From a cyanobacterium endosymbiont of Epithemia turgida isolate EtSB Lake Yunoko (lineage in GTDB: Bacteria > Cyanobacteriota > Cyanobacteriia > Cyanobacteriales > Microcystaceae), in assembly GCF_000829235.1 (NCBI RefSeq), contig NZ_AP012549.1, positions 1,380,001 through 1,412,000 of the forward strand: DNA of 32,000 nucleotides, read 5' to 3'. Shown here one piece after another: positions 2,196-32,000 of this stretch. Position numbers and translations under genes: made by a program. The notes under the pieces are model-generated. The model ran no database searches. It was not told where the DNA came from and saw only the letters and a program-made list of their open reading frames with translations. How positions within the stretch are numbered: position 1 is the stretch's first letter; each line of letters starts with the position of its first letter.

Positions 2196-4178
2196 CTAAG
2201 CTTCTTTGGCGGAAGAACGACGACGACGACGACGAATCACAGGGCGTTCAGAGTCATTTTCCGGTAGTTTTGTTGATGTTTCTTTATCATCTGTCTTCTC
2301 GTCATTGTCAGAAAACTCAGATACTTTAGGAGAAATGGATTGAGATATAACAAATGATGTGTCTCCACAAAAAATCTCCGCTTCCTCTTTTACCTCTTGT
2401 ATTTCTTGTTCCTTTCTTATTTCTTGTGTGTTCGACATATTTACTAAATGTTCAGAGAACTTAACGGATACTAATACAGACTTAGGGTCTTTAAACTCAC
2501 GATCAAGACACACTAAGGGAGAAACTCCCATTAAGGCATATAGATCTTGTTCCAAAGGGGTCATTTCCACAGATACCTTTTCCATTGGTATTTCTTCTCG
2601 GCGTAAATGTCTATGCCCTTTTTCTTTCCTGGGTTCAGCTTCTATTTCTCCTAAATAGTCACTCTCTTTTACCACGATATTAGGAATTACTTTAGTCGTT
2701 GACTCATCCTTCAACTGAGGTTGAGATTGACGGCGACGACGACGACGAGTGGCATTGGAGGCATTACCCTGTTCTTGATAGCTCGGATGGTGAAGTAATT
2801 CTAGTTGACTAGGGGTCTGATATATTTCATTTTCAAAACTAGATTCTCCAAGAATTTCAGGCTTTTCCACAGATTTTTCCACTGGTTTTACAACAGAAGA
2901 GGGGGAAACCACAGTAACCGTTTCTAAAGGAATCAATTCGGATTGTCCTGGAAGGCGAACCATATGTCCTAAACCACCACAACTGGAACAGGCTTGACCA
3001 AATAATTCGTAAATATTTTTGCCTTGACGTTTTCGAGTCAGTTCAACTAAACCTAATTCCGAAAGTTGTGCAATTTGTGGTCTAGCTTTATCAGATTTAA
3101 GAGCTTTATTGAAATGTTCTAATAGCTTCAGTTGATCGCGCCGTGAGTCCATATCGATAAAGTCTACAATGATTACCCCTCCAATATTACGCAGACGCAA
3201 TTGACGGGCAATTTCTGTAGCTGCTTCACTATTAGTCCACAGAACTGTTTCTCTGGCTGTTGCTGAACGGGTAAATGAACCAGAGTTAACATCAACAACT
3301 GTTAACGCTTCGGTAGGTTCAATGATAATGTAACCGCCAGAAGGTAAGTCAACCCTTGGTTTTAGCGCTTCTCGAATCGCGGCATTGACGCGAAAATAAT
3401 CTAAAACTCCAAGATGTTCGCGGTGATGATCAATCAAGACTCCTTCAGGAGAACGGCCACTACTCCAGTTCATTAAGTGTTGTTTTACTCGTTTTACCCC
3501 TGCTTGGGAATCTAAAACAATGCGGTTTACCTCTGCACTATATATGTCCCGTAACACCCGTTGAATAAAATCGTCATCACGGTTGAGTAGAGAAGGAGGA
3601 CGGGTTGAAGTAGCCTGAACTTGAATAGATTCCCATTGTCGCTGGAGAAACTCTAAGTCTTCCATAATTGCTTCTTCAGCTTTCCCTTCGGCTTCTGTCC
3701 GAACCAGTAATCCCATTCCTGCAGGTTTAATCAAAATAGCTAAAGCACGTAGTCGACTACGTTCATCATCATTTTTAATTCTTCTAGAAAGGTTAACCCC
3801 TCGACCATAGGGCATTAAAACTAAGTACCGACCTGGCAATGTAATATTCCCTGTGAGTCGTGGACCTTTATTTCCCGTGGGCTCTTTCATCACCTGAACC
3901 AATACATTTTGTTGAGGAGTCAACAACTCTGTAATAGCTCCCGGACTTCTTTTTAAGCGAAGAGGACCTAAATCGGTGACATGAATAAACCCATTGCGTT
4001 CTGCATCCCCAATATTGACAAATGCTGCGTCAATCCCTGGAATTACATTTTCTACCACTCCTAAATAAATGTCGCTAACTTGTTGGTTACCAGTGGCAAC
4101 CACTAGCTCTTGAATTTTATCTTCCCAGAAAACAGCAGCAATGTGGTGTTGCTCTGCGATAACAATTTGTTTTGACAT
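2196..4178 (-). CDS. rne: Ribonuclease E (compact cyanobacterial type)
   Basis: 660-aa ORF. The N-terminus has an S1 domain and the RNase E/G catalytic core (VSDIYLGVVENVIPGIDAAFVNIG, VVDVNSG). A Zn-link-like CSSCGGLGH follows. The C-terminal region is non-catalytic, with two Arg-rich boxes including the terminal RRRRRRSSA (2208..2234). GAGGGA lies about 5 nt upstream of the ATG. Confidence 0.92.
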   Translation of the reverse strand: MSKQIVIAEQHHIAAVFWEDKIQELVVATGNQQVSDIYLGVVENVIPGIDAAFVNIGDAERNGFIHVTDLGPLRLKRSPGAITELLTPQQNVLVQVMKEPTGNKGPRLTGNITLPGRYLVLMPYGRGVNLSRRIKNDDERSRLRALAILIKPAGMGLLVRTEAEGKAEEAIMEDLEFLQRQWESIQVQATSTRPPSLLNRDDDFIQRVLRDIYSAEVNRIVLDSQAGVKRVKQHLMNWSSGRSPEGVLIDHHREHLGVLDYFRVNAAIREALKPRVDLPSGGYIIIEPTEALTVVDVNSGSFTRSATARETVLWTNSEAATEIARQLRLRNIGGVIIVDFIDMDSRRDQLKLLEHFNKALKSDKARPQIAQLSELGLVELTRKRQGKNIYELFGQACSSCGGLGHMVRLPGQSELIPLETVTVVSPSSVVKPVEKSVEKPEILGESSFENEIYQTPSQLELLHHPSYQEQGNASNATRRRRRRQSQPQLKDESTTKVIPNIVVKESDYLGEIEAEPRKEKGHRHLRREEIPMEKVSVEMTPLEQDLYALMGVSPLVCLDREFKDPKSVLVSVKFSEHLVNMSNTQEIRKEQEIQEVKEEAEIFCGDTSFVISQSISPKVSEFSDNDEKTDDKETSTKLPENDSERPVIRRRRRRSSAKEA

Positions 4179-5818
4179 GCAATTCCCTCAAACTTTTGTA
4201 GCCGACTAAAACACTTTATTAAGTCGAGTGCCTGTCGATATAAATTAGTCAAAAAACTGTCTAAATTTAGTTGCAATTGACTTCAAGCCAATGAAGAATC
4301 AAAGAAAATTATACTCACCCTTATCTTTCACCTAAACGTCGGCTATCTAATTAAGCTGATGTAAGTAATTTCGTCTGAGGAGGTTGCTCGTTTTCTGTAT
4401 CTCTACCAATCTTAAAACGAGAATTGTAATTCGATACTTAGTGGACCCCTCTTTGAATAAACTTGTCAGCACCAACATTTATTGCATGTAAGACGCTTCT
4501 TAGGTGAATTGAGTTGATGATAGAACCAACAAGAAACACTTTAACTGTTTCCAGCAGTGAACTAACTAATGATTACAGTCAGCTAAACGGTTAAGTTCTA
4601 TTTGTATTAAATTACTTCAGCTGGTTGAGTGATTTTGGTTTTTTTGGACATTAATCATTCAGGACAATCTACATAAATACTAGATTATTTTAACCCAATT
4701 AAAACCTAGTTAAAAACCTAAAACCATATCATTAGCTCACTTTTAGTTTTTGGATAACGTTAATGTTAACCAATTGTTCCTATTCATATTTTCAGGTTGA
4801 GCAACCAGTGTAAATCATATTTTCTAGAATCCTATATCTTTAGAAGTCAGATGTAACTCTATTTAATAACCCTAAGTAGATTCGTTACCAGCTGCAAGTG
4901 TCATCTTAACATATATATGTCCGTCATTTATTTTTCTCATGTAGACTTGAAAGCTAATGTTCGAAGTACATTGTATAAACTTTTCTGAACTATGATAAGA
5001 GAAACTTGTCCTAAATCGGATTGTAAAAACTCACTTTGATTTGAAGAAAGGAAGAAGGACAGAGATTTTAGAAGGTAAGAGAAAAGGGAAATATGAAAAC
5101 CAGATTATGATATTCTAGTTTGACACAGAGTAAGAGTGTAGACTGGGGGTGAAAAGATCAAAGGGATAATCTTCACTGAACTTTAACTCAATGGTAATCA
5201 CATGCCAAAAAAGGTTAGGTTTTTCCTTTTCCCAACTAGAAGCTAAAACCATTGAGTCAAGAGAGAATTTGTCACACCAAGTCTATATAATTTATTTTTG
5301 ATCAAAAATTACGGATAAAAGACTCTTTATTTTTAATAAATAAACCGTGGAGTCAACAGAAGTAAATCAAAGTAGAGAACTGAAAACAGATTTTAACTGG
5401 TTAGTTTTTGACAATACTAATAGTCATTCCACTTTCTTCTGTAAAGAAAGTAGGAGTCATGAACAGGATGTATTTTATTAATTAAACCCTGCGTTATGTC
5501 TAAAGATTCTGATCCATTTCCTTTCGATATATCATTTTCCACATTTATATTAGCTTTAATTGAGATAGCACTTATCCCAATTTTTTGCACTCTAATATAT
5601 TGTTAGTTCATCCTTAAGAAAAATTGTAGTTATAAATTATTATCTTTCAGAAATATTCATGCATTTTTACTAAGTCTTAAAGTTCTTAAAGTCATTGATA
5701 TACAAATATCTTCTCAATTTTTTCTCCTAACTGTTCCTTGTTCTCGATTCATAACTATCAGTCTACTATCCTAAGTTAACTAGCACTGTATATAACCTAA
5801 ACTATTACTAACGCAAGC

Positions 5819-7089
5819 ATAAACAATAACTCTTTACTTATTGGGAAAGGACTTCCCCCAGTTCATAAAGTTTGGACTGATCAAATAGTTCTGGTTATAA
5901 CTGAATTAATTGAAAACTTAGATTTTTAATTAACTAACCTAGAAACTAATGTCACTCACATTTCGGAAGGATTGGTAGAACCTTTAACAGAAATTGAAGA
6001 ATGGTTAAGATGAAGTCGGGAAATTGTCGAGCATTTAGTGTCAGTTAACAATAGTCAAGAATTGCGGAAGGATTATTAATAATCTTAACCTTATATTGTT
6101 CACTTTATCAATAAAATCAACCAAAGTCAATTCTTGTATAAGGCATTTAAAGCCCTACAAAAGAGTGAAGTATGGAATACCCTAGGATCTGCCCAGAAGC
6201 GTATTGTTGAGATAGCTATCCGTGAAGCAGAATTCGCTGGTGTAGGGGTAGAAGGAGAAAACCGAGGTAGAAGGAGAAAAACGAGAACGATTTAATCAAA
6301 TTTAATTAGAATTAGTAGAACTTTCTACTAAGTTTTCTAACAATGTTTTTGATGCAAACAAAGTATTCAGACTGAAATTAAAAACAAAAAAATAAGTTGA
6401 TGGTTTACCCTCTAGTTTGCTAAGTTTAGCTGCTAAAAACACTGGGATATTAGTTTTTAGACAGAAAAACAACGGAAAATGAAGGTTTATTTAACTGCTG
6501 AAAAATTGCGCCTTTATTTTCCTTTAATTCAAGTATTAGAGGGCTTATTTACTTTAGCATAACGTATCTTCCAGGTAACCATAACTCTTGCTGATGGTCA
6601 AGCCTCTAGATGGCATAAAGATGTTCGTTATTTTCAGGTTAACAATGAATTAGGAGAAACAATTACCTATTTTTATTTTGACCTCTATATAAAAGTCGTT
6701 CACTAGAAAACCGGGAAGGGGCTTGGATGAAAAATTGTATTGTCCGTCCGGGCAAAAATCAAACCAGACAAAGGATTTTATACTCGTTTACTTGTCCGCT
6801 TATCTTATTTGTAATCAAACCCCTCCTGTGGGAAAAGAACCTAGTTTGATGACCTTTGATGAAATCACTATTTTGTTCTATAAATTCGGTTACGGACTTC
6901 AATATATGTTAACCAAAGTAGATTATCCAGGGGCATCAGGCATTAATAATGTTGAATGGGATGCCGTAGAATTACTTAGTTAATTTATGGAAAATTGGTG
7001 TTATTATCGCTATAATTTATTTGACTTATCTAAACATAATAAACCCAATGAAAAAGATACTCTCTTTCAAGTACATGATCGAGGTTTAT
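5819..7089 (+). pseudogene. prlC: Oligopeptidase A (M3 metallopeptidase) pseudogene: start codon lost, multiple stops and frameshifts, internal and C-terminal deletions, HExxH destroyed
   Basis: Hand translation across shifting frames matches my recollection of E. coli PrlC in colinear order: NSLLIGKGLPPVHKVW..., LVEPLTEIEEWL, LYKAFKALQKSEVWNTLGSAQKRIVEIAIREAEFAGVG, ELSTKFSNNVFDA, KLRLYFP..VLEGLF, WHKDVRYFQV, FYFDLY, then track ORF 6723..6983 with [57 protein letters not shown], then FMENWC. The expected HEFGHG reads YKFGYG. The expected ATG reads ATA at 5819..5821. Confidence 0.8.
6247..6284 (+). repeat. 19-bp tandem duplication inside the prlC pseudogene
   Basis: ggtagaaggagaaaaccga is followed directly by ggtagaaggagaaaaacga, with one mismatch. 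The unit length is not a multiple of 3, so the duplication shifts the frame. Confidence 0.85.
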
Positions 7090-7090
7090 A

Positions 7091-7123
7091 AAAAAATGGC
7101 AATTTACCCATTGCCATTTTTTT
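7091..7123. terminator. Bidirectional intrinsic-terminator-like hairpin (aaaaaatggcaat / ttaccc / attgccatttttt)
   Basis: Perfect 13-bp inverted repeat with a 6-nt loop. It has an A-run on the left and a T-run on the right, so it has stem plus U-tract in both orientations. It sits at the truncated 3' end of the prlC pseudogene. Confidence 0.6.
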
Positions 7124-7353
7124 ATGTAATTTTTGTCATATCTTTTCAGGAACCTATGCGACAGGGTACTAAAGTTATAAATGGGCATAAGTATTAATAG
7201 TGTTCCTTGTTCTTTACCTAAAAAAATAATTAAAGAATAAAAAAATTGATAAATATCTAATTTATTGTAAAATACAAGAAGTAAAAAAGAGATTAAAAAT
7301 GTTCTAATATCTGGGGCTATTTATTATGACATCCGAAAATTTTTTTTTAGGGG

Positions 7354-14936: not shown

Positions 14937-15815
14937 ATGTCTTCTTCAACTTCTTTTGTGTTAAATGGTAAAGCCTTAGCCCAAAAAATTCAGTGTGAAC
15001 TCCAAGAATGGGTTCGAAAACAACAACCCAGTATTGGCCGTCCTCCAGGATTAGCAGTATTGATGATAGGGGATGATCCGGCTAGTGCTGTTTATGTGCG
15101 TAATAAAGAGCGAGCTTGTGCTAAGGTAGGAATTGCTTCTTTTGGTCATCATTTCCCTGCTAATACTTCCCAAAAAGAATTAGAAACCGTTATTAGACAA
15201 CTTAATCAAGATCCGCGAGTAGATGGGATATTGATCCAGTTACCTTTGCCCGTTCATTTAGACACAGTACAATTGTTATTGGCTATTAACCCAGATAAAG
15301 ATGCTGATGGTCTTCATCCGATGAATTTAGGACGATTAATACGTGGTGAAACAGGTTTACGCAGTTGTACCCCCGCTGGAGTCATGCGTCTATTAGAAGA
15401 ACATCAGATCGCAGTGGCAGGTAAACAAGCAGTGGTGGTAGGAAGAAGTATTCTAGTAGGTAAACCGTTAGGGTTAATGTTGCTTGAAAAAAATGCTACA
15501 GTGACTATGGCTCATTCTAAAACCCAAGATTTACGAAGTGTGACCCGTCAAGGAGATATTTTGATTGTCGCAGCGGGTAAACCAGAGTTCATTAACGCAG
15601 ATATGGTTAAACCTGGGGCGATAGTTATCGATGTGGGAATTAATCGTGTTGTTCGATCAGATGGAACTTCCCAACTGGTAGGGGATGTGGATTTCAACTC
15701 TGTTGCTGATATAGCGCAATGTATTACGCCAGTTCCTGGGGGAATAGGTCCGATGACTGTAGCGATGTTATTAAGCAATACTGTGTTAAGTTATCATCAA
15801 CGGGAGACACCATGA
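14937..15815 (+). CDS. folD: Bifunctional 5,10-methylene-THF dehydrogenase / methenyl-THF cyclohydrolase
   Basis: 292-aa ORF with [45 protein letters not shown] and [14 protein letters not shown], all typical of FolD. Confidence 0.95.
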
Positions 15816-16157
15816 ACAAATTTAATTTTTCTAGAATTATACCTGTGAGTCATCCTAAGGCAAAACTTAGCAGGTGTCCATTATTCTTGAGTGGAATGAT
15901 GTAGACTTTTATTTGATAATTGGAGATCCTGTAGGCAATATTATTACTCAAGATAATAGTACTAATGCAGATGTCTATTGTACATTGTTGCGGTGATTCC
16001 AACAGCAAAAAACGCATATTTTAATTTTTATATTGAATATTCCAAGGTCCAAGCGATTATTCATGATAGTAATCCCGATCTTTCTACAACTTGTGTGTTC
16101 ACTAGTATTATTGAAGGGGATTGTTGTTTTTGGGTTAAATCTCTTCTGAGCAGATAA
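15812..16157 (+). pseudogene. Candidate decayed gene translationally coupled to folD (ATGA overlap); at least 2 frameshifts, family unknown
   Basis: The ATG at 15812 overlaps the folD TGA. Three protein-like open stretches follow in shifting frames: [21 protein letters not shown] / VSIILEWNDVDFYLIIGDPVGNIITQDNSTNADVYCTLL / AVIPTAKNAYFNFYIEYSKVQAIIHDSNPDLSTTCVFTSIIEGDCCFWVKSLLSR*. The last ends at a TAA (16155..16157) inside the first arm of the 27-bp palindrome. I recognised no homolog. Confidence 0.3.
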
Positions 16158-16192
16158 TTTTCTTTAAAATTATCTGCTCAGAAGAGATTTAA
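16135..16192. repeat. Perfect 27-bp-stem palindrome with a 4-nt loop
   Basis: ttaaatctcttctgagcagataatttt, loop cttt, aaaattatctgctcagaagagatttaa. Checked base by base with no mismatch. Confidence 0.95.
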
Positions 16193-16596
16193 GTTGTTAT
16201 TTATATTTTCTACTGCTGCTAGAGCTTTTTCGATAAAAACATACAATAATTTTTCCGATCCGACACTTAATTCACTTAATTATTCTACAAATTTTTGAAT
16301 ACAACAAATAAGGGTTTTTATACAAACTAATTGATATTAATAGGTCTAATGTCCAAGTTTAGCTTTTCTCAAATTGGGTTTAATTTATTTTTTGTTTTAT
16401 ACTTAAATCTTCTTCGATTTGTAAGCAAAATGTATATGTGTTTAATTTAAACCTGATAAACTTTTTTCTTTTGTTAGAATAATTTTGTTATATAGTTCAT
16501 TAGTATCTTTTATAGCTAGAGCCTTTATTCTAAAATTAGAGATCCAAACGCTACATATAGAGTTTGCTTTAATTAGTTTCGAATGAATAAGGGATA

Positions 16597-19500
16597 ATGA
16601 ACCATAGACAAGAATGGCAAAATAGCGGTGTTGACGAACAATTGATTAACCTCAATGTAACAGCCTTAGAGGGGACTTCCCCTTTAGAGTACTTGTTTTA
16701 TTCTGACGCACTTCCTAGACGTAATGATGGTCGGGTTAATAATTCCATGTTAAGACGCTATAAACATACAGAACGAGGAGGTTGGTGGTGTTCAGGGGTA
16801 GATCTCTTGACAGGTGGCGAGGATTTATGGGGGTGTTTTAAACCCAATTCCCCTCGCACGAGTCATGATGAGCACAAGTTGATCAAGTACGAGCATCCCC
16901 CTAAAACATCAGCGGGGGTTTTTGCCTTGCGGGTTCCATTACATCTGTGGCGACAATTAGCCCAACGCTATCACCAGGATATTACTCCAGAAGAGATTAA
17001 TAATCAACTCCCAGATTTAGGTTTTTGGCAATGGGTGATAAATCATCCTTCGATTCCCGTTTGTATTACTGAAGGGGCTAAAAAAGCAGGGGCGTTGTTA
17101 ACAGCAGGATATGTTGCGATCGCTCTTCCAGGAATTAATAGTGGCTATCGAACTCCTCGAGATAAGTTAGGTAACCGAATCGGAAAGTCTCGTCTCATTC
17201 CCCAGCTCGGAAAAATAGCGATTTCAGGAAGAAAAATTTATATTGCTTTTGATCAAGATAATAAACCAAGTTCGATTAAAGAGGTGAATTATGCTATTAG
17301 AAAATTGGGAAGTTTATTCACTCAAGCAGGATGTCAAGTTAACATTATTGTTTGGCTACCGAAATGGGGAAAAGGAGTAGATGATTTTTTAACTCATAAA
17401 GGACTAAAAACTTTTAATAAAGCTTACGAACAGGCATTATCTCTAGAAACTTGGAAAGCACAAAGTTTAAGACAATTAACATATCCTTCTGATGTTGAAG
17501 TCAGTACTCGATATTTAGGAGATTTACTAATTCCTCCAGCTGCTAAATTAGTAGGAATAAAATCTCCAATAGGAACTGGAAAAACTAAGACTCTTGAAAA
17601 GATTGTTGAACAGGCAATCACTTGTCAACAAAAGATATTAGTAATTGGTCATCGAGTTAAGTTGGTTGAGCAACTTTGTCAACGATTTAAAATTCCTTAT
17701 TTAACAGAAATTCAAAAAAATAATGGTAAAATTTTAAAAGGATGTGGACTTTGTATTGATTCTCTTCATCCTAATTCTTTATCTAATTTTAATCCTAGTG
17801 ATTGGACAGGTAGTCTAATTATTATCGATGAAGTAGAACAGGTTTTATGGCATGGATTAAATTCAAATACTTGTAAACAAAATAGGGTTTCTATTCTAAG
17901 ATCTTTTAAAAACCTACTTGAACAAAGTTTAGAATTTCAGGGAAGAGTAGTTATTGCTGATGCAGACTTAAGTGATATTTCTCTTGACTATTTAATTTCT
18001 TTGATGGGAATTAAATTAAACCCGTTCATTGTAGTCAACAATTGGAAATCTAACGATAAAGAAACATGGGGAGTATATAATTATACGGAAACTACTCCCC
18101 GAGAATGGCTCAAGGATTTAGTGCAACATATTCAGCAAGGGGGTAAACCTTTTGTTTGTCTATCCGCTCAGAAATTAACTAGTAAGTGGGGAACACAAAC
18201 CCTAGAATTATACTTAAAAAAGCGATTCCCAGAAGTGAGAAGCCTAAGGATTGATTCTGAATCATTAACTGACCCTAATCATGACGCTTATCAATCTATC
18301 AACCACCTTAATAAAATTCTATTAAATTACGATATTATTTTGGCTAGTCCTTCCATTGAGACAGGAGTCAGTATCGATATCAAAGATCATTTTACCTCTG
18401 TTTGGGGATTAGCTCAAGGGATACAAACTGCTACTTCTGTATGTCAATCACTAGGAAGAATTCGTGATAACATTCCTCGTTATATTTGGTGTGCTTCCTA
18501 TGGGTTTAATAAAGTAGGAAATGGTTCTACTTCAATTCCCAATTTGTTAACTGCTGGTAATCGTGTTACTCAGTTAAATATTAAGTTGTTACAACAATCT
18601 GACTTAACAGCTTTAGATGATATAGATATAGAATTTCAAGCGGAATCTTTACTTTGTTGGGCAAAAATGGCGGTTCGCGTTAATGTTTCAATGATTCATT
18701 ATCGAGAGTCAATATTAAGAAATATTACTGATCAAAATCATCCAATTCTTCGCAAGAAGAAACTAGTCACTATTCAAGATATCAAAAAATGTAAAAAATA
18801 TTCGTATAATAGTAAAAATTCTTGTCAATTAATAAAAGCAATTGAAAGTGTTAGAGAACAAAATTATCAAGAAGAATGTGTAATGGTTTCCCAAGGCAAA
18901 GAGATTACTGATAAACAATATCAAGCGTTAAATAAGAGGTTAGTTAAAACTGTAGTTGAACGGCATAGCATCAAAAAATATAATTTACAAAGACGCTATT
19001 GTATTGAGATAACTCCTCAATTAGTTGCCTTAGATGATGAAGGATGGTATGACAAGATACGTTTACATTATTTTTTAACTTTAGGACGTTCTTATTTAGC
19101 AGATAGAGACACTATTCTTGCGAAGAAATTCATAGAAAAAGGACAGGGTAGCCTTTTCCTGCCTGATTTTAATAGTTCTCAATTAGGAGTAATTATTGGA
19201 ACAATGGAGGTGTTGGGAATGCCGGTGTTACTCATGAACCATGAGCGAAAGTTAAAGCCTACAGATAAAGACTTGCAAGCGATGGCAAGAATTGCTATTA
19301 AAAACCGCGCTGAAATCAAGACTATTATGAAAATTGGTATTGCTAAAAATTCTAGTCCTATTACGATCATACGGCGTTTGTTGAATAAGATCGGCTACGG
19401 ATTAACTTGTATTGGTTCTCAAAAAGTTAATAAAAAGCGAGTGCGAGTGTATCAAGTTGTTCTTCCTGATGATGCTAGGCAAAAGGTATTTAGACAATGG

Positions 19501-19638
19501 TGGATAAGAGATGGAAAATTACCAGGTAGTTCTGAACCTTGGTTTGAAGAATATACAAATATTAAGTCAGAAATGACTAAAATTCAACATCAGCAGGAAA
19601 AAAACAAAAATTATATCCAATTAAGTTTAGAATTTTAA
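16597..19638 (+). CDS. Primase-helicase replication protein of the CyRepA1 type: DUF3854/Toprim-like N-terminal half, P-loop helicase-like ATPase, ~300-aa C-terminal domain of unknown function
   Basis: 1013-aa ORF. The N-terminus EWQNSGVDEQLINLNV is typical of DUF3854 proteins. Toprim-like acidic residues: ITEG (E159, 17071..17073) and FDQD (D219/D221, 17251..17259). Walker A GTGKT at 17572..17586, Walker B IIIDEVE with D411 at 17827, then SPSIETGVSI and QSLGRIRD helicase-like motifs. AAGGGA lies 3 nt upstream of the ATG. Confidence 0.8.
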   Translation: MNHRQEWQNSGVDEQLINLNVTALEGTSPLEYLFYSDALPRRNDGRVNNSMLRRYKHTERGGWWCSGVDLLTGGEDLWGCFKPNSPRTSHDEHKLIKYEHPPKTSAGVFALRVPLHLWRQLAQRYHQDITPEEINNQLPDLGFWQWVINHPSIPVCITEGAKKAGALLTAGYVAIALPGINSGYRTPRDKLGNRIGKSRLIPQLGKIAISGRKIYIAFDQDNKPSSIKEVNYAIRKLGSLFTQAGCQVNIIVWLPKWGKGVDDFLTHKGLKTFNKAYEQALSLETWKAQSLRQLTYPSDVEVSTRYLGDLLIPPAAKLVGIKSPIGTGKTKTLEKIVEQAITCQQKILVIGHRVKLVEQLCQRFKIPYLTEIQKNNGKILKGCGLCIDSLHPNSLSNFNPSDWTGSLIIIDEVEQVLWHGLNSNTCKQNRVSILRSFKNLLEQSLEFQGRVVIADADLSDISLDYLISLMGIKLNPFIVVNNWKSNDKETWGVYNYTETTPREWLKDLVQHIQQGGKPFVCLSAQKLTSKWGTQTLELYLKKRFPEVRSLRIDSESLTDPNHDAYQSINHLNKILLNYDIILASPSIETGVSIDIKDHFTSVWGLAQGIQTATSVCQSLGRIRDNIPRYIWCASYGFNKVGNGSTSIPNLLTAGNRVTQLNIKLLQQSDLTALDDIDIEFQAESLLCWAKMAVRVNVSMIHYRESILRNITDQNHPILRKKKLVTIQDIKKCKKYSYNSKNSCQLIKAIESVREQNYQEECVMVSQGKEITDKQYQALNKRLVKTVVERHSIKKYNLQRRYCIEITPQLVALDDEGWYDKIRLHYFLTLGRSYLADRDTILAKKFIEKGQGSLFLPDFNSSQLGVIIGTMEVLGMPVLLMNHERKLKPTDKDLQAMARIAIKNRAEIKTIMKIGIAKNSSPITIIRRLLNKIGYGLTCIGSQKVNKKRVRVYQVVLPDDARQKVFRQWWIRDGKLPGSSEPWFEEYTNIKSEMTKIQHQQEKNKNYIQLSLEF

Positions 19639-19991: not shown

Positions 19992-21344
19992 TTAACGCAT
20001 GGTCACAAATTCTTCAGCAGAACTTGGATGAATACCCACGGTAGCATCAAAATCAGCCTTTTTAGCTCCCATTTTTACGGCAATAGCTATTCCTTGAATA
20101 ATTTCGGCAGCATGATCTCCTACCATATGTGCGCCCAAAATCTGATCACTTTCTTGATGAACAACAAGTTTCATCAAAGTTTTTTCCTTTGTGTCAGGCA
20201 ATACATAATACATTGGACGAAACTCGCTACTATATACTCTGATAGCATTTTTTCCATATTGTTCTTTAGCTTTTGCTTCAGTTAGTCCTACTGTGGCAGC
20301 TTCTGGAGTACTAAACACGGCAGATGGGACATTTTCATAACTCATCAGACACGATTTACCTCCAAATTTGGTGTCAGCGAAAGCGCGGCCTTCACTAATA
20401 GCGACAGGAGTGAGATTAATACGATCTGTACAGTCTCCGACTGCATATATATTCTGTTCGGCGGTTTGACTATACTTATCGACAACGATTACTCCATTGT
20501 GTACTTTAACCTCTGTATTTTCTAATCCTAAGTTTTCTAAGTTAGGGATACGCCCAGTAGCAGCCAATCCAATGGTATCAGCTAATACCATGTCATTATT
20601 GCTATCTCCTTCCAGAGAAATTGTTAAACCTTGGTTTGTCTTTTTGACTTCAGAGATGGAACAGTTTTTTAGGATGCGAATACCATGTTCTTCCATAGAC
20701 TCTTGGATGATGGTTCGGATATCTTCATCAAACCCTTTCAGTATTTTATCGCTGCGAATAATTTGGATGACATCTGACCCTAGTCCATGCATAATACAGG
20801 CAAATTCTACCCCAATGTAACCCCCTCCCCAAATGACGACGCGTTGGGGTTGTTCGGGTAGTTCAAACATAGCATCAGAGGTCACTAAATATTCTTTTCC
20901 TGGAATATTAGGTTTGATGGGACGTCCCCCTACAGCAATTAAAACTTTATCAGTGGTAACTTTGGTATTTTCCACTTCTACGGTGTGGGGGTCGAGTAAT
21001 TTACCATGGGCACGATACAGTTGAACATTGGACTTATCCAACATCTTTTGATAAATACCATTGAGACGACCAACTTCCTTATCGATAGCGGCCATCATTT
21101 TAGGCCAGTCGAGGATACTTTTAGCCGGACTCCATCCATATCCTTGGGACTCTTCCAAGACTCTAGGGAAATGAGAAGTATAAACCATTAATTTTTTGGG
21201 AATACATCCTCTATTAACACAGGTTCCCCCTAGACGATTAAATTCTGCTAAACCGACTCGAGCTCCATATTCGGCAGCGCGTCTAGCAGTGGCAATTCCT
21301 CCTGAACCACCACCAATAACGAATAAATCAAAATTAAAACTCAT
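19992..21344 (-). CDS. gor: Glutathione-disulfide reductase
   Basis: 450-aa ORF with FAD-binding GGGSGG, the redox-active GGTCVNRGCIPKK, NADPH-binding GGGYIGVEFA, and the C-terminal HPSSAEEFVTMR typical of GR rather than lipoamide dehydrogenase. Confidence 0.9.
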   Translation of the reverse strand: MSFNFDLFVIGGGSGGIATARRAAEYGARVGLAEFNRLGGTCVNRGCIPKKLMVYTSHFPRVLEESQGYGWSPAKSILDWPKMMAAIDKEVGRLNGIYQKMLDKSNVQLYRAHGKLLDPHTVEVENTKVTTDKVLIAVGGRPIKPNIPGKEYLVTSDAMFELPEQPQRVVIWGGGYIGVEFACIMHGLGSDVIQIIRSDKILKGFDEDIRTIIQESMEEHGIRILKNCSISEVKKTNQGLTISLEGDSNNDMVLADTIGLAATGRIPNLENLGLENTEVKVHNGVIVVDKYSQTAEQNIYAVGDCTDRINLTPVAISEGRAFADTKFGGKSCLMSYENVPSAVFSTPEAATVGLTEAKAKEQYGKNAIRVYSSEFRPMYYVLPDTKEKTLMKLVVHQESDQILGAHMVGDHAAEIIQGIAIAVKMGAKKADFDATVGIHPSSAEEFVTMR

Positions 21345-25506: not shown

Positions 25507-25959
25507 ATGGAATTCCAAGCTCAAGAAAAAACGATCCCTCAAGACTTAGATACCGACCCTCAAGGCTTAGATGCCGACCCTCAAGGCTTAGATACTGAAG
25601 TTCCAGGGACATTGACCAAGCAACTGTCCATGATTGATCAACCTTGGCAAGAGTGGTTAGAACCTGTAGTTTATCTTCTTTCTAATGCCTCTGATTACAT
25701 TGGAGAATGGTTCAACACCTACAAACAATTGCTGACGACTCTAGGCATTTTCCTTTTTGCTATCATCAGCGTTAAGATTATCGTGGCAGTTCTCGGAGCA
25801 ATTAGTGATGTTCCTCTTTTGGCCCCTGTCTTACAACTTGTAGGACTAACTCATACTGCTTGGTTTGCGTGGCGTTATCTTTGGAAGGCATCTAACCGCC
25901 AAGAGTTAGTGGCTGAATTTGATGCCCTAAGAAATCAAATTTTTGGAGAAAACGCTTAA
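25507..25959 (+). CDS. curT: CAAD-domain thylakoid-curvature protein (CurT / CURT1-like)
   Basis: 150-aa ORF. The C-terminal two-helix segment LLTTLGIFLFAIISVKIIVAVLGAISDVPLLAPVLQLVGLTHTAWFAWRYLWKASNRQEL matches my recollection of the CAAD/CurT signature (IPLLAP...WF..RYL....NRQEL). Confidence 0.75.
   Translation: MEFQAQEKTIPQDLDTDPQGLDADPQGLDTEVPGTLTKQLSMIDQPWQEWLEPVVYLLSNASDYIGEWFNTYKQLLTTLGIFLFAIISVKIIVAVLGAISDVPLLAPVLQLVGLTHTAWFAWRYLWKASNRQELVAEFDALRNQIFGENA
25537..25599 (+). repeat. In-frame imperfect 21-bp x 3 repeat encoding PQDLDTD-PQGLDAD-PQGLDTE
   Basis: The units are 25537..25557, 25558..25578 and 25579..25599. Adjacent units differ at 2 to 3 positions. All are codon-aligned with the curT-like CDS. 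Confidence 0.9.
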
Positions 25960-31742: not shown

Positions 31743-31976
31743 AAGTAATTTTTATAAATAAATATGATTTGGCTAAGATAGTTAAATAAAGTAATTTTTA
31801 TAAATAAATATGATTTGGCTAAGATAGTTAAATAAAGTAATTTTTATAAATAAATATGATTTGGCTAAGATAGTTAAATAAAGTAATTTTTATAAATAAA
31901 TATGATTTGGCTAAGATAGTTAAATAAAGTAATTTTTATAAATAAATATGATTTGGCTAAGATAGTTAAATAAAGT
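31743..31976. repeat. Perfect tandem repeat: 46-bp unit x 5.1 copies
   Basis: The unit aagtaatttttataaataaatatgatttggctaagatagttaaata starts at 31743, 31789, 31835, 31881 and 31927. All five copies are identical, and the array decays after 31976. The 13 nt to the left (31729..31741) are the reverse complement of the unit positions 3..15 (31745..31757), which forms a boundary hairpin. Confidence 0.95.
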
Positions 31977-32000
31977 TATTATCAATGAACAAAGTAGTTG

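What the first reader, a model, noticed from the sequence alone, without database searches (positions are those of the whole stretch)
16597..19638. Intact 1013-aa CyRepA1-type primase-helicase (plasmid Rep) sitting alone between chromosomal housekeeping genes in a decaying region
Seen in sequence: the ORF combines a DUF3854/Toprim-like half (EWQNSGVD..., ITEG, FDQD) with a P-loop helicase-like half (GTGKT, IIIDEVE, QSLGRIRD) and a ~300-aa C-terminal domain with no motif I recognise. Established knowledge: this architecture is that of Slr7037/CyRepA1, the replication initiator of Synechocystis plasmid pSYSA, and of related cyanobacterial plasmid Reps. Here the gene sits between folD and gor. 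Within 32 kb there is no integrase, partition gene, relaxase, transposase or other plasmid or phage gene. Its neighbours include pseudogenes and kb-scale gene deserts. A 3-kb open frame in DNA this AT-rich, where stop codons arise easily, should not persist without selection. The only perfect HIP1 octamer (GCGATCGC, 17116..17123) I found in the window lies inside this gene, which suggests long chromosomal residence. Inference: this is a domesticated plasmid Rep. It could act as an alternative, DnaA-independent chromosome initiator, since dnaA is reported dispensable or absent in several cyanobacteria including some endosymbionts. Alternatively it could support a separate replicon in trans. The unassigned C-terminal domain is the candidate origin-recognition module.
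Basis: partly seen in the sequence, partly recalled or inferred. Interest (0 to 1): 0.78.

Follow-up and report, generated by a model that had tools for sequence, protein, structure and literature searches.

The report
Chromosomal plasmid-type replication enzyme in diazoplast
A nitrogen-fixing diatom endosymbiont that has lost the usual bacterial replication starter DnaA keeps, under clear selection, an intact chromosomal relative of a cyanobacterial plasmid replication protein, inherited from its free-living ancestors; this makes the protein a testable, unproven candidate for how such genomes start copying their DNA.

Summary
ORF 16597..19638 (+) is intact at 1013 aa. It scores 539 bits against NCBIfam CyRepA1 (cutoff 200) and E=6.7e-51 against Pfam DUF3854. 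It lies between folD and gor in a window that is about 52% coding and has no mobile-element genes.

The window comes from a spheroid body (diazoplast) of an Epithemia adnata-type diatom.

The "domesticated plasmid Rep" reading needs correcting. The gene sits at the same syntenic site in four other spheroid-body genomes and next to gor in the free-living relative SU2. Its dN/dS is 0.17-0.19, like its housekeeping neighbours. It belongs to a chromosomal clade that is separate from plasmid Reps (200/200 NJ bootstraps). It is 58-67% identical to chromosomal copies in other orders, but only 38.6% to Slr7037 and at most 52% to any plasmid copy. So it predates the endosymbiosis.

A supplementary table published in 2024 already lists chromosomal CyRepA homologs in 80 of 145 cyanobacteria, including spheroid bodies and UCYN-A, with function unvalidated.

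New here:
- the clade structure and the selection estimates;
- a roughly 75-bp conserved element directly upstream of the gene;
- a fold resembling the herpesvirus UL9 origin-binding helicase;
- a confidently modelled C-terminal domain with no structural match.

A role as a DnaA-independent initiator is plausible but unproven. DnaA-less Cyanobacterium species have no CyRepA at all, which argues against it as a general mechanism.

The parts
16597..19638 (+). Intact 1013-aa chromosomal-clade CyRepA (CyRepA1-family primase-helicase) gene
   Evidence: ORF. NCBIfam CyRepA1 539 bits. Orthologs 83-91% identical at the same site in four spheroid-body genomes. dN/dS 0.17-0.19.
16597..17016 (+). N-terminal extension, aa 1-140; the most constrained part. 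H57, C65, C80 and H100 are nearly invariant, which may indicate a metal-binding module.
   Evidence: dN/dS 0.05-0.11. Conserved columns. Low model confidence for aa 28-61 and 79-105, so the fold is unknown.
17023..17406 (+). DUF3854 / Toprim-like putative primase domain, aa 143-270
   Evidence: Pfam E=6.7e-51. E159, D219, D262 and D263 are invariant and D221 nearly invariant across chromosomal and plasmid copies. pLDDT about 90.
17494..18636 (+). SF2 (DEXDc, UL9-like) helicase core, aa ~300-680, with Walker A GTGKT (17572..17586), Walker B DEVE (17827..17838) and the R621/R623 motif (within 18445..18468)
   Evidence: Weak ResIII hit. Invariant G328 K329, D411 E412, Q415, R621, R623. Foldseek top PDB hit is HSV-1 UL9 bound to OriS, E=9.4e-13. 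BFVD origin-binding helicases down to E=8.9e-25. PHROG 'replication' 1.2e-33 and 'replication origin binding' 6.3e-10.
18637..19635 (+). C-terminal domain, aa 681-1013: helical bundle plus a beta-hairpin; function unassigned, candidate DNA-binding module
   Evidence: Domain-only AF2 model pLDDT 82.7, pTM 0.71. No significant PDB match: best E=0.19, and the weak hits are mostly winged-helix proteins. dN/dS 0.17-0.21.
16492..16566 (+). Conserved ~75-bp non-coding element directly 5' of the gene, containing a -10-like TAAAAT (16531..16536); a candidate promoter/operator or cognate binding site
   Evidence: nhmmer E=6e-18 in the window, with exactly one significant copy (E < 0.01) per locus, always upstream of the ortholog, in spheroid bodies, SU2, SU3, UBA12306, BG0011, Crocosphaera 51142, UCYN-A4 and others. 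All 3 metagenome matches also lie just 5' of an ortholog. Promoter-like hexamers 16509..16536. Absent upstream of plasmid CyRepA1 genes.
17116..17123 (+). HIP1 octamer GCGATCGC encoding the conserved Ala-Ile-Ala; a relic of the free-living ancestor
   Evidence: Only copy in the window. The same site carries HIP1 in SU2, SU3, UBA12306, BG0011 and Gloeothece 7424. It is eroded in the other spheroid bodies and in UCYN-A4.
14937..15815 (+). folD, the upstream housekeeping neighbour
   Evidence: NCBIfam FolD 494 bits. Synteny in L002-L005.
19992..21344 (-). gor (glutathione-disulfide reductase), the downstream convergent neighbour
   Evidence: NCBIfam 625 bits. Adjacency is conserved in the spheroid bodies and in free-living SU2.

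Best explanation
The ORF is the spheroid-body (diazoplast) ortholog of an old chromosomal lineage of CyRepA proteins. It was inherited vertically from the free-living ancestor and is kept functional by purifying selection.

It is a single polypeptide with four parts: a conserved N-terminal module, a Toprim-like (DUF3854) putative primase, an SF2 helicase with the fold of viral UL9-type origin-binding helicases, and a C-terminal domain that is probably DNA-binding.

The most likely job (inferred, not shown) is that of a self-contained initiator/primosome. It would recognise a DNA site, open it with the helicase, lay down a primer, and so start DNA synthesis without DnaA on the endosymbiont's DNA, meaning the chromosome and/or its ~6-kb plasmid.

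The conserved ~75-bp element just upstream of the gene is its promoter/operator and possibly a cognate binding site.
For: Shown:
- Family and domains.
- Catalytic residues are invariant in 47 chromosomal and plasmid homologs.
- The gene is at the same position in four other spheroid-body genomes, and next to gor in SU2.
- dN/dS is 0.17-0.19 for the whole gene and 0.05-0.23 in each domain, matching folD, gor and iscS.
- Full-length copies occur in at least 8 spheroid-body-like lineages.
- The chromosomal clade is monophyletic and follows the species order: spheroid bodies, then SU2, UBA12306, Crocosphaera/UCYN-A, and other orders (200/200 bootstraps).
- Plasmid copies are at most 52% identical.
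- The HIP1 site is ancestral.
- The fold matches origin-binding helicases, and orthologs pass Pfam Herpes_ori_bp.
- A conserved upstream element is linked only to this gene.

From the literature:
- CyRepA1 (Slr7037) is required for autonomous replication of pSYSA (PMC9978351).
- dnaA is absent from all spheroid bodies (bioRxiv 10.64898/2026.03.19.712447), and from UCYN-A and 'Nostoc azollae' (PMC7198777). Each of these keeps one chromosomal CyRepA (PMC10899382 supplement).
- In S. elongatus, loss of dnaA was rescued when a plasmid integrated and its origin took over. That strain's plasmid pANL carries a CyRepA.
Against: - No biochemical or genetic data exist for any chromosomal CyRepA. The authors who catalogued them say their function needs validation.
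- DnaA-less free-living Cyanobacterium aponinum, C. stanieri and HL-69 have no CyRepA at all. Geminocystis has them only on plasmids. So CyRepA is not generally needed for DnaA-independent replication.
- Many species that have dnaA also carry the chromosomal copy.
- Synechocystis replicates from many dispersed origins, which fits a single sequence-specific initiator poorly.
- The C-terminal domain has no significant structural match.
- The upstream element shows no clear inverted repeat in the window itself, and one copy next to its own gene fits a plain promoter equally well.
- GC skew in 32 kb follows gene orientation and is uninformative.
Confidence: 0.6

Rival explanations
1. It is a Rep acting in trans, whose essential role is to replicate the conserved ~6-kb spheroid-body plasmid (feoA-like, CfeoB-like, glpF/aqpZ plus two other genes). 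That plasmid is too small to encode a 3-kb CyRepA of its own.
For: Every spheroid body carries this plasmid at 1-2 copies per chromosome. It has only five genes, and none is reported as a Rep. The only experimentally shown function of the CyRepA1 family is plasmid replication.
Against: The ortholog is also kept in UCYN-A, whose entry in the published table lists a single 1.44-Mb chromosome and no plasmid. In free-living relatives the chromosomal copy coexists with plasmids that carry their own CyRepA paralogs (Crocosphaera 51142, Stanieria NIES-3757). The conserved upstream element was found only next to the gene. The plasmid sequence itself could not be obtained, so this rival was not directly tested.
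Confidence: 0.2
2. It is a chromosomal maintenance enzyme rather than an initiator. It would be a primase-helicase used for replication restart, lagging-strand or repair priming, or recombination-dependent replication in polyploid cyanobacteria.
For: It is single-copy, sits among housekeeping genes without conserved synteny across orders, and is present whether or not dnaA is present. Replication from multiple origins in Synechocystis and Nostoc fits initiation that is not sequence-specific. Spheroid bodies retain most DNA-repair genes.
Against: The closest structural relatives are origin-binding initiator helicases, not restart helicases. All characterised family members are initiators. The gene is missing from 65 of the 145 cyanobacterial chromosomes surveyed, so it is not a universal maintenance function.
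Confidence: 0.17
3. It is a remnant of a recently integrated plasmid or ICE, or a decaying gene with no current function.
For: The surroundings are gene-poor and contain pseudogene fragments.
Against: The gene is at the same locus in all spheroid-body genomes examined and beside gor in free-living SU2. dN/dS is about 0.18 in every domain. There are no mobile-element genes nearby. Spheroid bodies lack intact transposases. An open frame this long has a chance probability of about 6e-34.
Confidence: 0.02

Closest known systems
CyRepA1 (Slr7037), Rep protein of Synechocystis PCC 6803 plasmid pSYSA
   Same: Same NCBIfam family (539 bits) and same DUF3854 + DEXDc helicase + C-terminal architecture. 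The catalytic residues are shared.
   Different: Only 38.6% identical, and in a separate, fully supported clade. The window gene is chromosomal, syntenic and vertically inherited rather than plasmid-borne. Its upstream region is unrelated to the ssr7036/asRNA1 control region of pSYSA. Replication activity has not been tested.
Chromosomal CyRepA homologs catalogued by Sakamaki et al. 2024 (PMC10899382, Suppl. Data 1): cce_1866, UCYN_11190, PCC8801_2115, slr0554, SYNPCC7002_A0214, alr3925, Aazo_4775, and the E. turgida and R. gibberula spheroid-body copies
   Same: The window gene is an ortholog of the spheroid-body copies (89-91% identical to the R. gibba and R. gibberula copies) and of cce_1866 (P0019, 65% identical, same clade, same upstream element).
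   Different: These were only counted; the paper states that their function needs validation. The clade structure, selection estimates, upstream element and structural relatives are added here. I did not test whether slr0554, A0214 and alr3925 fall in this clade.
Herpesvirus UL9 origin-binding protein and UL9-like 'replication origin-binding' SF2 helicases (some fused to primases) of giant viruses and phages
   Same: Best structural matches: PDB 9hgi/9hgj at E about 1e-12, BFVD down to 9e-25. Orthologs pass Pfam Herpes_ori_bp. Like these proteins, it is an initiator-type SF2 helicase rather than a hexameric DnaB or SF3 helicase.
   Different: TM-scores are modest (0.3-0.45). The window protein itself gave no Pfam PF02399 hit at E<=1. 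The C-terminal domain does not match the UL9 DNA-binding domain. UL9 has no fused Toprim primase.
Toprim primase-helicase fusions (T7 gp4 / Twinkle) and the RSF1010 RepA/RepB'/RepC set
   Same: Functional analogy: priming and unwinding are combined so that replication can start without host DnaA or DnaG.
   Different: T7 gp4 and Twinkle use an SF4 DnaB-like hexameric helicase, whereas here the helicase is SF2. There is no detectable sequence similarity beyond weak Toprim hits. This comparison rests on general knowledge of those systems and was not tested here.

Membership tests
CyRepA1 family (NCBIfam NF042913) | HMM score above the curated cutoff | tested here: met
   539.2 bits against a cutoff of 200; aa 316-937 cover model positions 2-593 of 595.
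CyRepA1 family (NCBIfam NF042913) | N-terminal DUF3854/Toprim-like domain followed by a DEXDc-type helicase with intact Walker A and B motifs | tested here: met
   DUF3854 E=6.7e-51. GTGKT and DEVE are present. E159, D219, K329, D411 and E412 are invariant.
CyRepA1 family (NCBIfam NF042913) | Encoded on the plasmid that it replicates (the basis of the name; Kaltenbrunner et al. 2023) | tested here: not met
   Chromosomal, between folD and gor. Same site in four other spheroid-body chromosomes of 2.5-3.1 Mb. Orthologs lie on the main chromosomes of free-living species.
CyRepA1 family (NCBIfam NF042913) | Required for autonomous replication of a replicon | not testable with these tools
   Needs genetics or an AR-seq-type assay.
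CyRepA1 family (NCBIfam NF042913) | Groups with Slr7037 and the plasmid Reps in a phylogeny | tested here: not met
   The chromosomal-type sequences form their own clade in 200/200 NJ bootstraps. Identity to Slr7037 is 38.6% and to pAQ1 Rep 39.2%.
UL9-like origin-binding SF2 helicases (Pfam PF02399 Herpes_ori_bp) | Helicase core with the UL9 fold | tested here: met
   Foldseek 9hgi_B E=9.4e-13. Viral origin-binding proteins down to 8.9e-25.
UL9-like origin-binding SF2 helicases (Pfam PF02399 Herpes_ori_bp) | Pfam PF02399 match above the gathering score | tested here: inconclusive
   Not reported for the window protein at E<=1. Orthologs P0022, P0058 and P0073 score 23.8-28.9 bits against a cutoff of 20, over the N-terminal helicase motifs only.
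UL9-like origin-binding SF2 helicases (Pfam PF02399 Herpes_ori_bp) | C-terminal sequence-specific origin-binding domain homologous to that of UL9 | tested here: not met
   The domain-only model (pLDDT 82.7) has no PDB match below E=0.19, and UL9 is not among the hits.
UL9-like origin-binding SF2 helicases (Pfam PF02399 Herpes_ori_bp) | Binds paired inverted boxes flanking an AT-rich spacer at an origin | not testable with these tools
   A conserved upstream element exists. Inverted arms around an AT-rich spacer are clear in L008 and L020 but degenerate in the window. Binding is unknown.
DnaG / T7 gp4-type Toprim primase | Toprim acidic residues (E, DxD) | tested here: met
   E159, D219, D262 and D263 are invariant and D221 is nearly invariant. 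The direct Pfam Toprim hits are only weak (E 0.08-0.2).
DnaG / T7 gp4-type Toprim primase | Zinc-binding domain N-terminal to the Toprim domain | tested here: inconclusive
   H57, C65, C80 and H100 are nearly invariant, but that region is modelled with pLDDT below 50.
Integrated plasmid / ICE / prophage | Integrase, relaxase, partition or transposase genes nearby, and the insertion absent from sister genomes | tested here: not met
   No such genes among ORFs of at least 80 aa. The locus is conserved in L002-L005, and the adjacency to gor is present in SU2.

The most novel reading that the evidence does not exclude
The chromosomal CyRepA clade is the missing DnaA-independent initiator of chromosome replication in clade A/B cyanobacteria. 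Its retention is what allowed dnaA to be lost repeatedly on the way to nitrogen-fixing organelles (spheroid bodies/diazoplasts, UCYN-A/nitroplast, 'Nostoc azollae'). The conserved element 5' of the gene would be one of its cognate sites.
Probability: 0.25. Interest if true: 0.88.

Novelty: new variant of a known kind. Interest (0 to 1): 0.6.

Why it matters
How many cyanobacteria, and the DnaA-less endosymbionts and organelles derived from them, start chromosome replication has been open since dnaA was shown to be dispensable in Synechocystis and Nostoc (PMC7198777).

A recent preprint proposes that loss of dnaA in spheroid bodies hands control of replication to the host. That proposal does not consider that every spheroid body keeps an intact, selected initiator-type primase-helicase.

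Showing that this gene belongs to a distinct, vertically inherited chromosomal clade with its own conserved upstream element gives a concrete candidate and concrete experiments in tractable relatives.

If the gene instead serves only the small feoAB/glpF plasmid, it would be a case of a plasmid depending on a chromosomal Rep in an organelle-like symbiont.

Tried and rejected
- **Spheroid-body plasmid.** I tried accessions AP018342, AP012550, CP067996, CP076463 and NZ_AP018342; none is in PLSDB. NZ_AP012550 turned out to be an unrelated S. aureus plasmid. The trans-Rep rival therefore could not be tested.
- **Upstream element as structured RNA.** RNAalifold predicts no pairs. The only Rfam hits are spurious miRNA matches to a nearby hairpin.
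- **Upstream element as a LexA box.** By eye it has two or more mismatches to the cyanobacterial consensus as I recall it, so I dropped this.
- **Inverted repeat in the element.** It is detected objectively only in L008 and L020, not in the window.
- **Extra copies of the element.** nhmmer on all loci and one metagenome pattern scan found it only directly 5' of orthologs.
- **UL9-like C-terminal DNA-binding domain.** Not supported.
- **PDB sequence search.** Nothing found.
- **dnaN proximity.** Seen only in Crocosphaera 51142, so probably coincidence.
- **GC skew in the window.** It tracks gene strand only.
- **UCYN-A4 protein cluster look-up.** No exact match.
- **Literature searches.** Searches for slr0554 and A0214 found no functional data. 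No expression data were found in the supplements that are held.
Full report
**Observation**

The window has a single long ORF at 16597..19638 on the + strand, 1013 aa with an ATG start. Given the window's 34% GC, the chance of 1013 stop-free codons is about 6e-34.

Pfam finds DUF3854 at aa 143-270 (E=6.7e-51) and weak ResIII and AAA helicase hits at aa 317-416. NCBIfam NF042913, 'plasmid replication protein, CyRepA1 family', scores 539 bits against a cutoff of 200 over aa 316-937.

The neighbours are ordinary chromosomal genes:
- folD, glutathione reductase, CtpB, an IscS-type cysteine desulfurase, RNase E and tRNA-Asp;
- CoaE, by the Pfam family precomputed for the same gene in L001;
- a 2-Cys peroxiredoxin, a PTPS/QueD-like protein, and CAAD, DUF3038 and DUF4335 proteins.

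No integrase, transposase, relaxase, partition or phage family was found. Only about 52% of the window is coding. The non-coding gaps are 0.8-3.2 kb at 22-32% GC, and there is a Peptidase_M3 gene fragment.

**Source**

The identical protein is on a Logan contig (SRR29904087). The best database relative (99%) is from the cyanobacterial endosymbiont of Epithemia adnata. The window is therefore from a spheroid body (diazoplast) of a rhopalodiacean diatom. These genomes are described as about 2.8-3.1 Mb, about 34% GC, low in coding density and free of intact transposases.

**Vertical inheritance and selection**

A scan of one genome per species found full-length orthologs in four spheroid bodies: R. 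gibba (90%), R. gibberula (89%), E. clementina (89%) and uoEpiScrs1 (83%). It also found them in free-living SU2 (80%), Cyanothece UBA12306 (72%), SU3 and BG0011 (65%) and a UCYN-A4 MAG (61%).

In all four spheroid bodies the order coaE ... iscS-ctpB-nudix-orf179-folD-CyRepA-gor-... is the same as in the window. In SU2, the closest free-living relative by genome phylogeny, the gene is already near gor.

Pairwise dN/dS against these orthologs is 0.17-0.19. That is the same range as folD (0.11-0.24), gor (0.10-0.15) and iscS (0.12-0.19). Each of the four protein regions is constrained (0.05-0.23), and the N-terminal 140 residues are the most constrained.

The lone HIP1 octamer at 17116 encodes a conserved Ala-Ile-Ala. 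It sits at exactly the site that carries HIP1 in SU2, SU3, UBA12306, BG0011 and Gloeothece 7424, and it is eroded in the other spheroid bodies and in UCYN-A4. It is therefore a relic of the free-living ancestor.

A recently integrated plasmid and a decaying gene are both excluded.

**A chromosomal clade distinct from plasmid Reps**

The protein search returned about 1000-aa homologs at 58-67% identity on the main chromosomes of several species:
- Crocosphaera subtropica ATCC 51142 (4.93 Mb)
- Gloeothece PCC 7424
- Stanieria NIES-3757
- Pleurocapsa PCC 7319
- Lyngbya aestuarii

Their neighbours are housekeeping genes. In contrast, a tblastn search of 72,556 plasmids found 243 records, all below 60% identity. 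The best was 50.9%, and pAQ1 was 38.5%.

I built an NJ tree of 16 chromosomal-type sequences (several from draft contigs) and 6 plasmid sequences. It puts all chromosomal-type sequences in one clade that follows the species order. The Stanieria NIES-3757 chromosomal copy (58.8% to the window) is separated from that strain's own plasmid copy (45.1%). Slr7037 is 38.6% identical. All tested splits have 200/200 bootstrap support.

So "domestication", if it ever happened, is ancient and predates the split of several cyanobacterial orders.

**What was already known**

CyRepA1 (Slr7037) is needed to keep pSYSA as an autonomous replicon (PMC9978351). CyRepA2 drives a broad-host-range vector (PMC10079941).

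Sakamaki et al. 2024 (PMC10899382) report CyRepA homologs on the chromosomes of 80 of 145 cyanobacteria and state that their function needs validation. Their supplementary table lists one chromosomal copy each in the following:
- the E. turgida and R. gibberula spheroid bodies
- UCYN-A (UCYN_11190, in a 1.44-Mb genome)
- 'Nostoc azollae' (Aazo_4775)
- Synechocystis (slr0554)
- Synechococcus 7002 (A0214)
- Nostoc 7120 (alr3925)

The existence of this gene is therefore not new. I found no paper that discusses it together with dnaA.

**dnaA context**

dnaA is reported absent from all spheroid bodies. It is also absent from the E. turgida symbiont, UCYN-A, 'Nostoc azollae' and the Paulinella chromatophore. 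It is dispensable in Synechocystis 6803, Nostoc 7120 and Synechococcus 7002, and the mechanism is unknown.

For the initiator idea:
- The chromosomal CyRepA is present in all three experimentally DnaA-independent strains.
- It is present in three independently reduced DnaA-less symbiont lineages.
- It is absent from the chromosomes of DnaA-dependent S. elongatus, of Thermosynechococcus and of nearly all marine picocyanobacteria (Synechococcus sp. KORDI-100 is the one listed exception). These belong to lineages described as mostly having V-shaped GC skew.
- In S. elongatus, loss of dnaA was tolerated when a plasmid integrated and its origin took over. That strain's plasmid pANL encodes a CyRepA. 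That the integrated plasmid was pANL is my recollection and was not checked here.

Against it:
- The DnaA-less free-living Cyanobacterium aponinum, C. stanieri and HL-69 have no CyRepA anywhere. Geminocystis has it only on plasmids.
- Many species that have dnaA also carry the chromosomal copy.
- The correlation is confounded by phylogeny.
- Synechocystis uses many dispersed origins.

**Anatomy of the protein**

Across 47 chromosomal and plasmid homologs, these residues are invariant: the Toprim glutamate E159, D219, D262/D263, Walker A G328-K329, Walker B D411-E412, Q415, and R621/R623. D221 is nearly invariant.

The AlphaFold model (46-sequence alignment, pLDDT 72.5) is confident for the Toprim domain, most of the helicase and aa 750-985. 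Its best PDB matches are the HSV-1 origin-binding protein UL9 bound to OriS (E=9.4e-13), followed by generic SF2 helicases.

In the viral structure library the top named hits are 'replication origin-binding protein' or 'helicase-primase' proteins of giant viruses, phages and herpesviruses, down to E=8.9e-25. PHROGs gives 'replication' (1.2e-33) and 'replication origin binding' (6.3e-10). Three orthologs pass Pfam Herpes_ori_bp over the helicase motifs.

The C-terminal 334 residues, modelled alone (pLDDT 82.7), form a helical domain with a beta-hairpin. They have no significant structural match: the best is E=0.19, and the weak hits are mostly winged-helix proteins. The UL9 resemblance is therefore in the helicase and not in the DNA-binding domain.

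**A conserved upstream element**

The 781-bp folD-CyRepA spacer has three parts:
- the remnant of a small gene that is longer in the other spheroid bodies;
- a variable AT-rich stretch;
- about 130 bp next to the start codon that are almost invariant among spheroid bodies.

The core of that last part (16492..16566) is recognisable upstream of the orthologs in SU2, SU3, UBA12306, BG0011, Crocosphaera 51142, a TARA contig and UCYN-A4. It is partly recognisable in Chroococcus and a Microcystaceae MAG. The proteins in these genomes are only 60-65% identical to the window's.

A profile search finds exactly one significant copy (E < 0.01) per locus, always directly 5' of the gene. All three exact-pattern matches in the metagenome collection also lie just 5' of an ortholog.

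The element contains a conserved TAnnAT box, and a promoter-like hexamer pair lies at 16509..16536. In Gloeothece and Chroococcus, inverted arms (CCCATATATAGAGT/ACACTAGATATGGG and TAGTGTTTT/AAAACACTA) bracket that AT-rich box. In the window the symmetry is degenerate.

No RNA structure or Rfam family fits it. It is absent upstream of the plasmid Rep genes, which have different repeats.

The safest reading is a conserved promoter with an operator. Two inverted boxes around an AT-rich spacer is also how UL9 sites are arranged at OriS (general knowledge), so a cognate binding site, or even a gene-linked origin, is possible but unproven.

**Verdict**

The gene is a functional, vertically inherited member of a chromosomal sub-lineage of the CyRepA1 family. 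It combines a putative Toprim primase, a UL9-like SF2 helicase and an unassigned C-terminal domain.

It most likely starts or primes DNA synthesis without DnaA on spheroid-body DNA. Whether the target is the chromosome, the conserved ~6-kb plasmid or stalled forks cannot be decided here. I could not retrieve the plasmid sequence.

I rate it a new variant of a known kind. The family and the existence of chromosomal copies are known. The distinct clade, its selection in DnaA-less organelle-like symbionts, its upstream element and its structural relatives are new, and they make a long-standing question testable.

Noticed in passing
window 15816..16150: The first ~335 bp after folD align to a sequence that is ~530 bp long, conserved and coding-like in the other spheroid bodies. 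It contains two similar repeats with '...DVDFDL.IEDP...' motifs. The window copy has lost about 140 bp, so it is probably a pseudogene remnant of a small repeat-domain protein.
   Followed up: partly
window 16140..16187: A perfect 20-22-bp inverted repeat (TCTCTTCTGAGCAGATAATTTT ... AAAATTATCTGCTCAGAAGAGA) followed by T-rich sequence, which looks like a terminator. It lies where the pseudogene remnant ends. It is not conserved in the other spheroid bodies and draws only spurious miRNA hits in Rfam.
   Followed up: partly
window 31743..31980: A tandem array of a 46-bp AT-rich unit, 5.2 copies at 99% identity, near the end of the window. The published E. adnata spheroid-body assembly is said to have gaps at complex tandem repeats.
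   Followed up: no
window 6723..6983: An 86-aa ORF matches the middle of Peptidase_M3 (profile positions 214-278 of 457). It is a fragment of a decayed oligopeptidase gene inside a 5-kb stretch that otherwise holds only tRNA-Asp.
   Followed up: no
L019 389..1570 and 4001..7138 (Crocosphaera subtropica ATCC 51142 chromosome): The ortholog cce_1866 lies 2.4 kb from dnaN, the gene next to oriC in S. elongatus. No other fetched locus has dnaN nearby, so this is probably a coincidence.
   Followed up: yes
L009 18090..19220 (UCYN-A4 MAG contig): The contig labelled UCYN-A4 encodes a ChpXY CO2-hydration protein near the CyRepA ortholog. This is unexpected if UCYN-A4 were as reduced as UCYN-A1/A2. 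The lineage may be less reduced, or the contig may be mis-binned.
   Followed up: no
L013 and L016, about 350-400 bp upstream of the plasmid CyRepA1 genes (Stanieria plasmids): Repeated and inverted CCTAAACACT motifs (AGTGTTTAGGAG...CTCCTAAACACTCCTAAACACT) lie upstream of the plasmid Rep genes. They look like iterons and are unrelated to the element of the chromosomal clade.
   Followed up: no
window 25536..25595: A 21-bp unit repeated 2.9 times (92% match) inside the CAAD-domain gene. It is an in-frame coding repeat.
   Followed up: no
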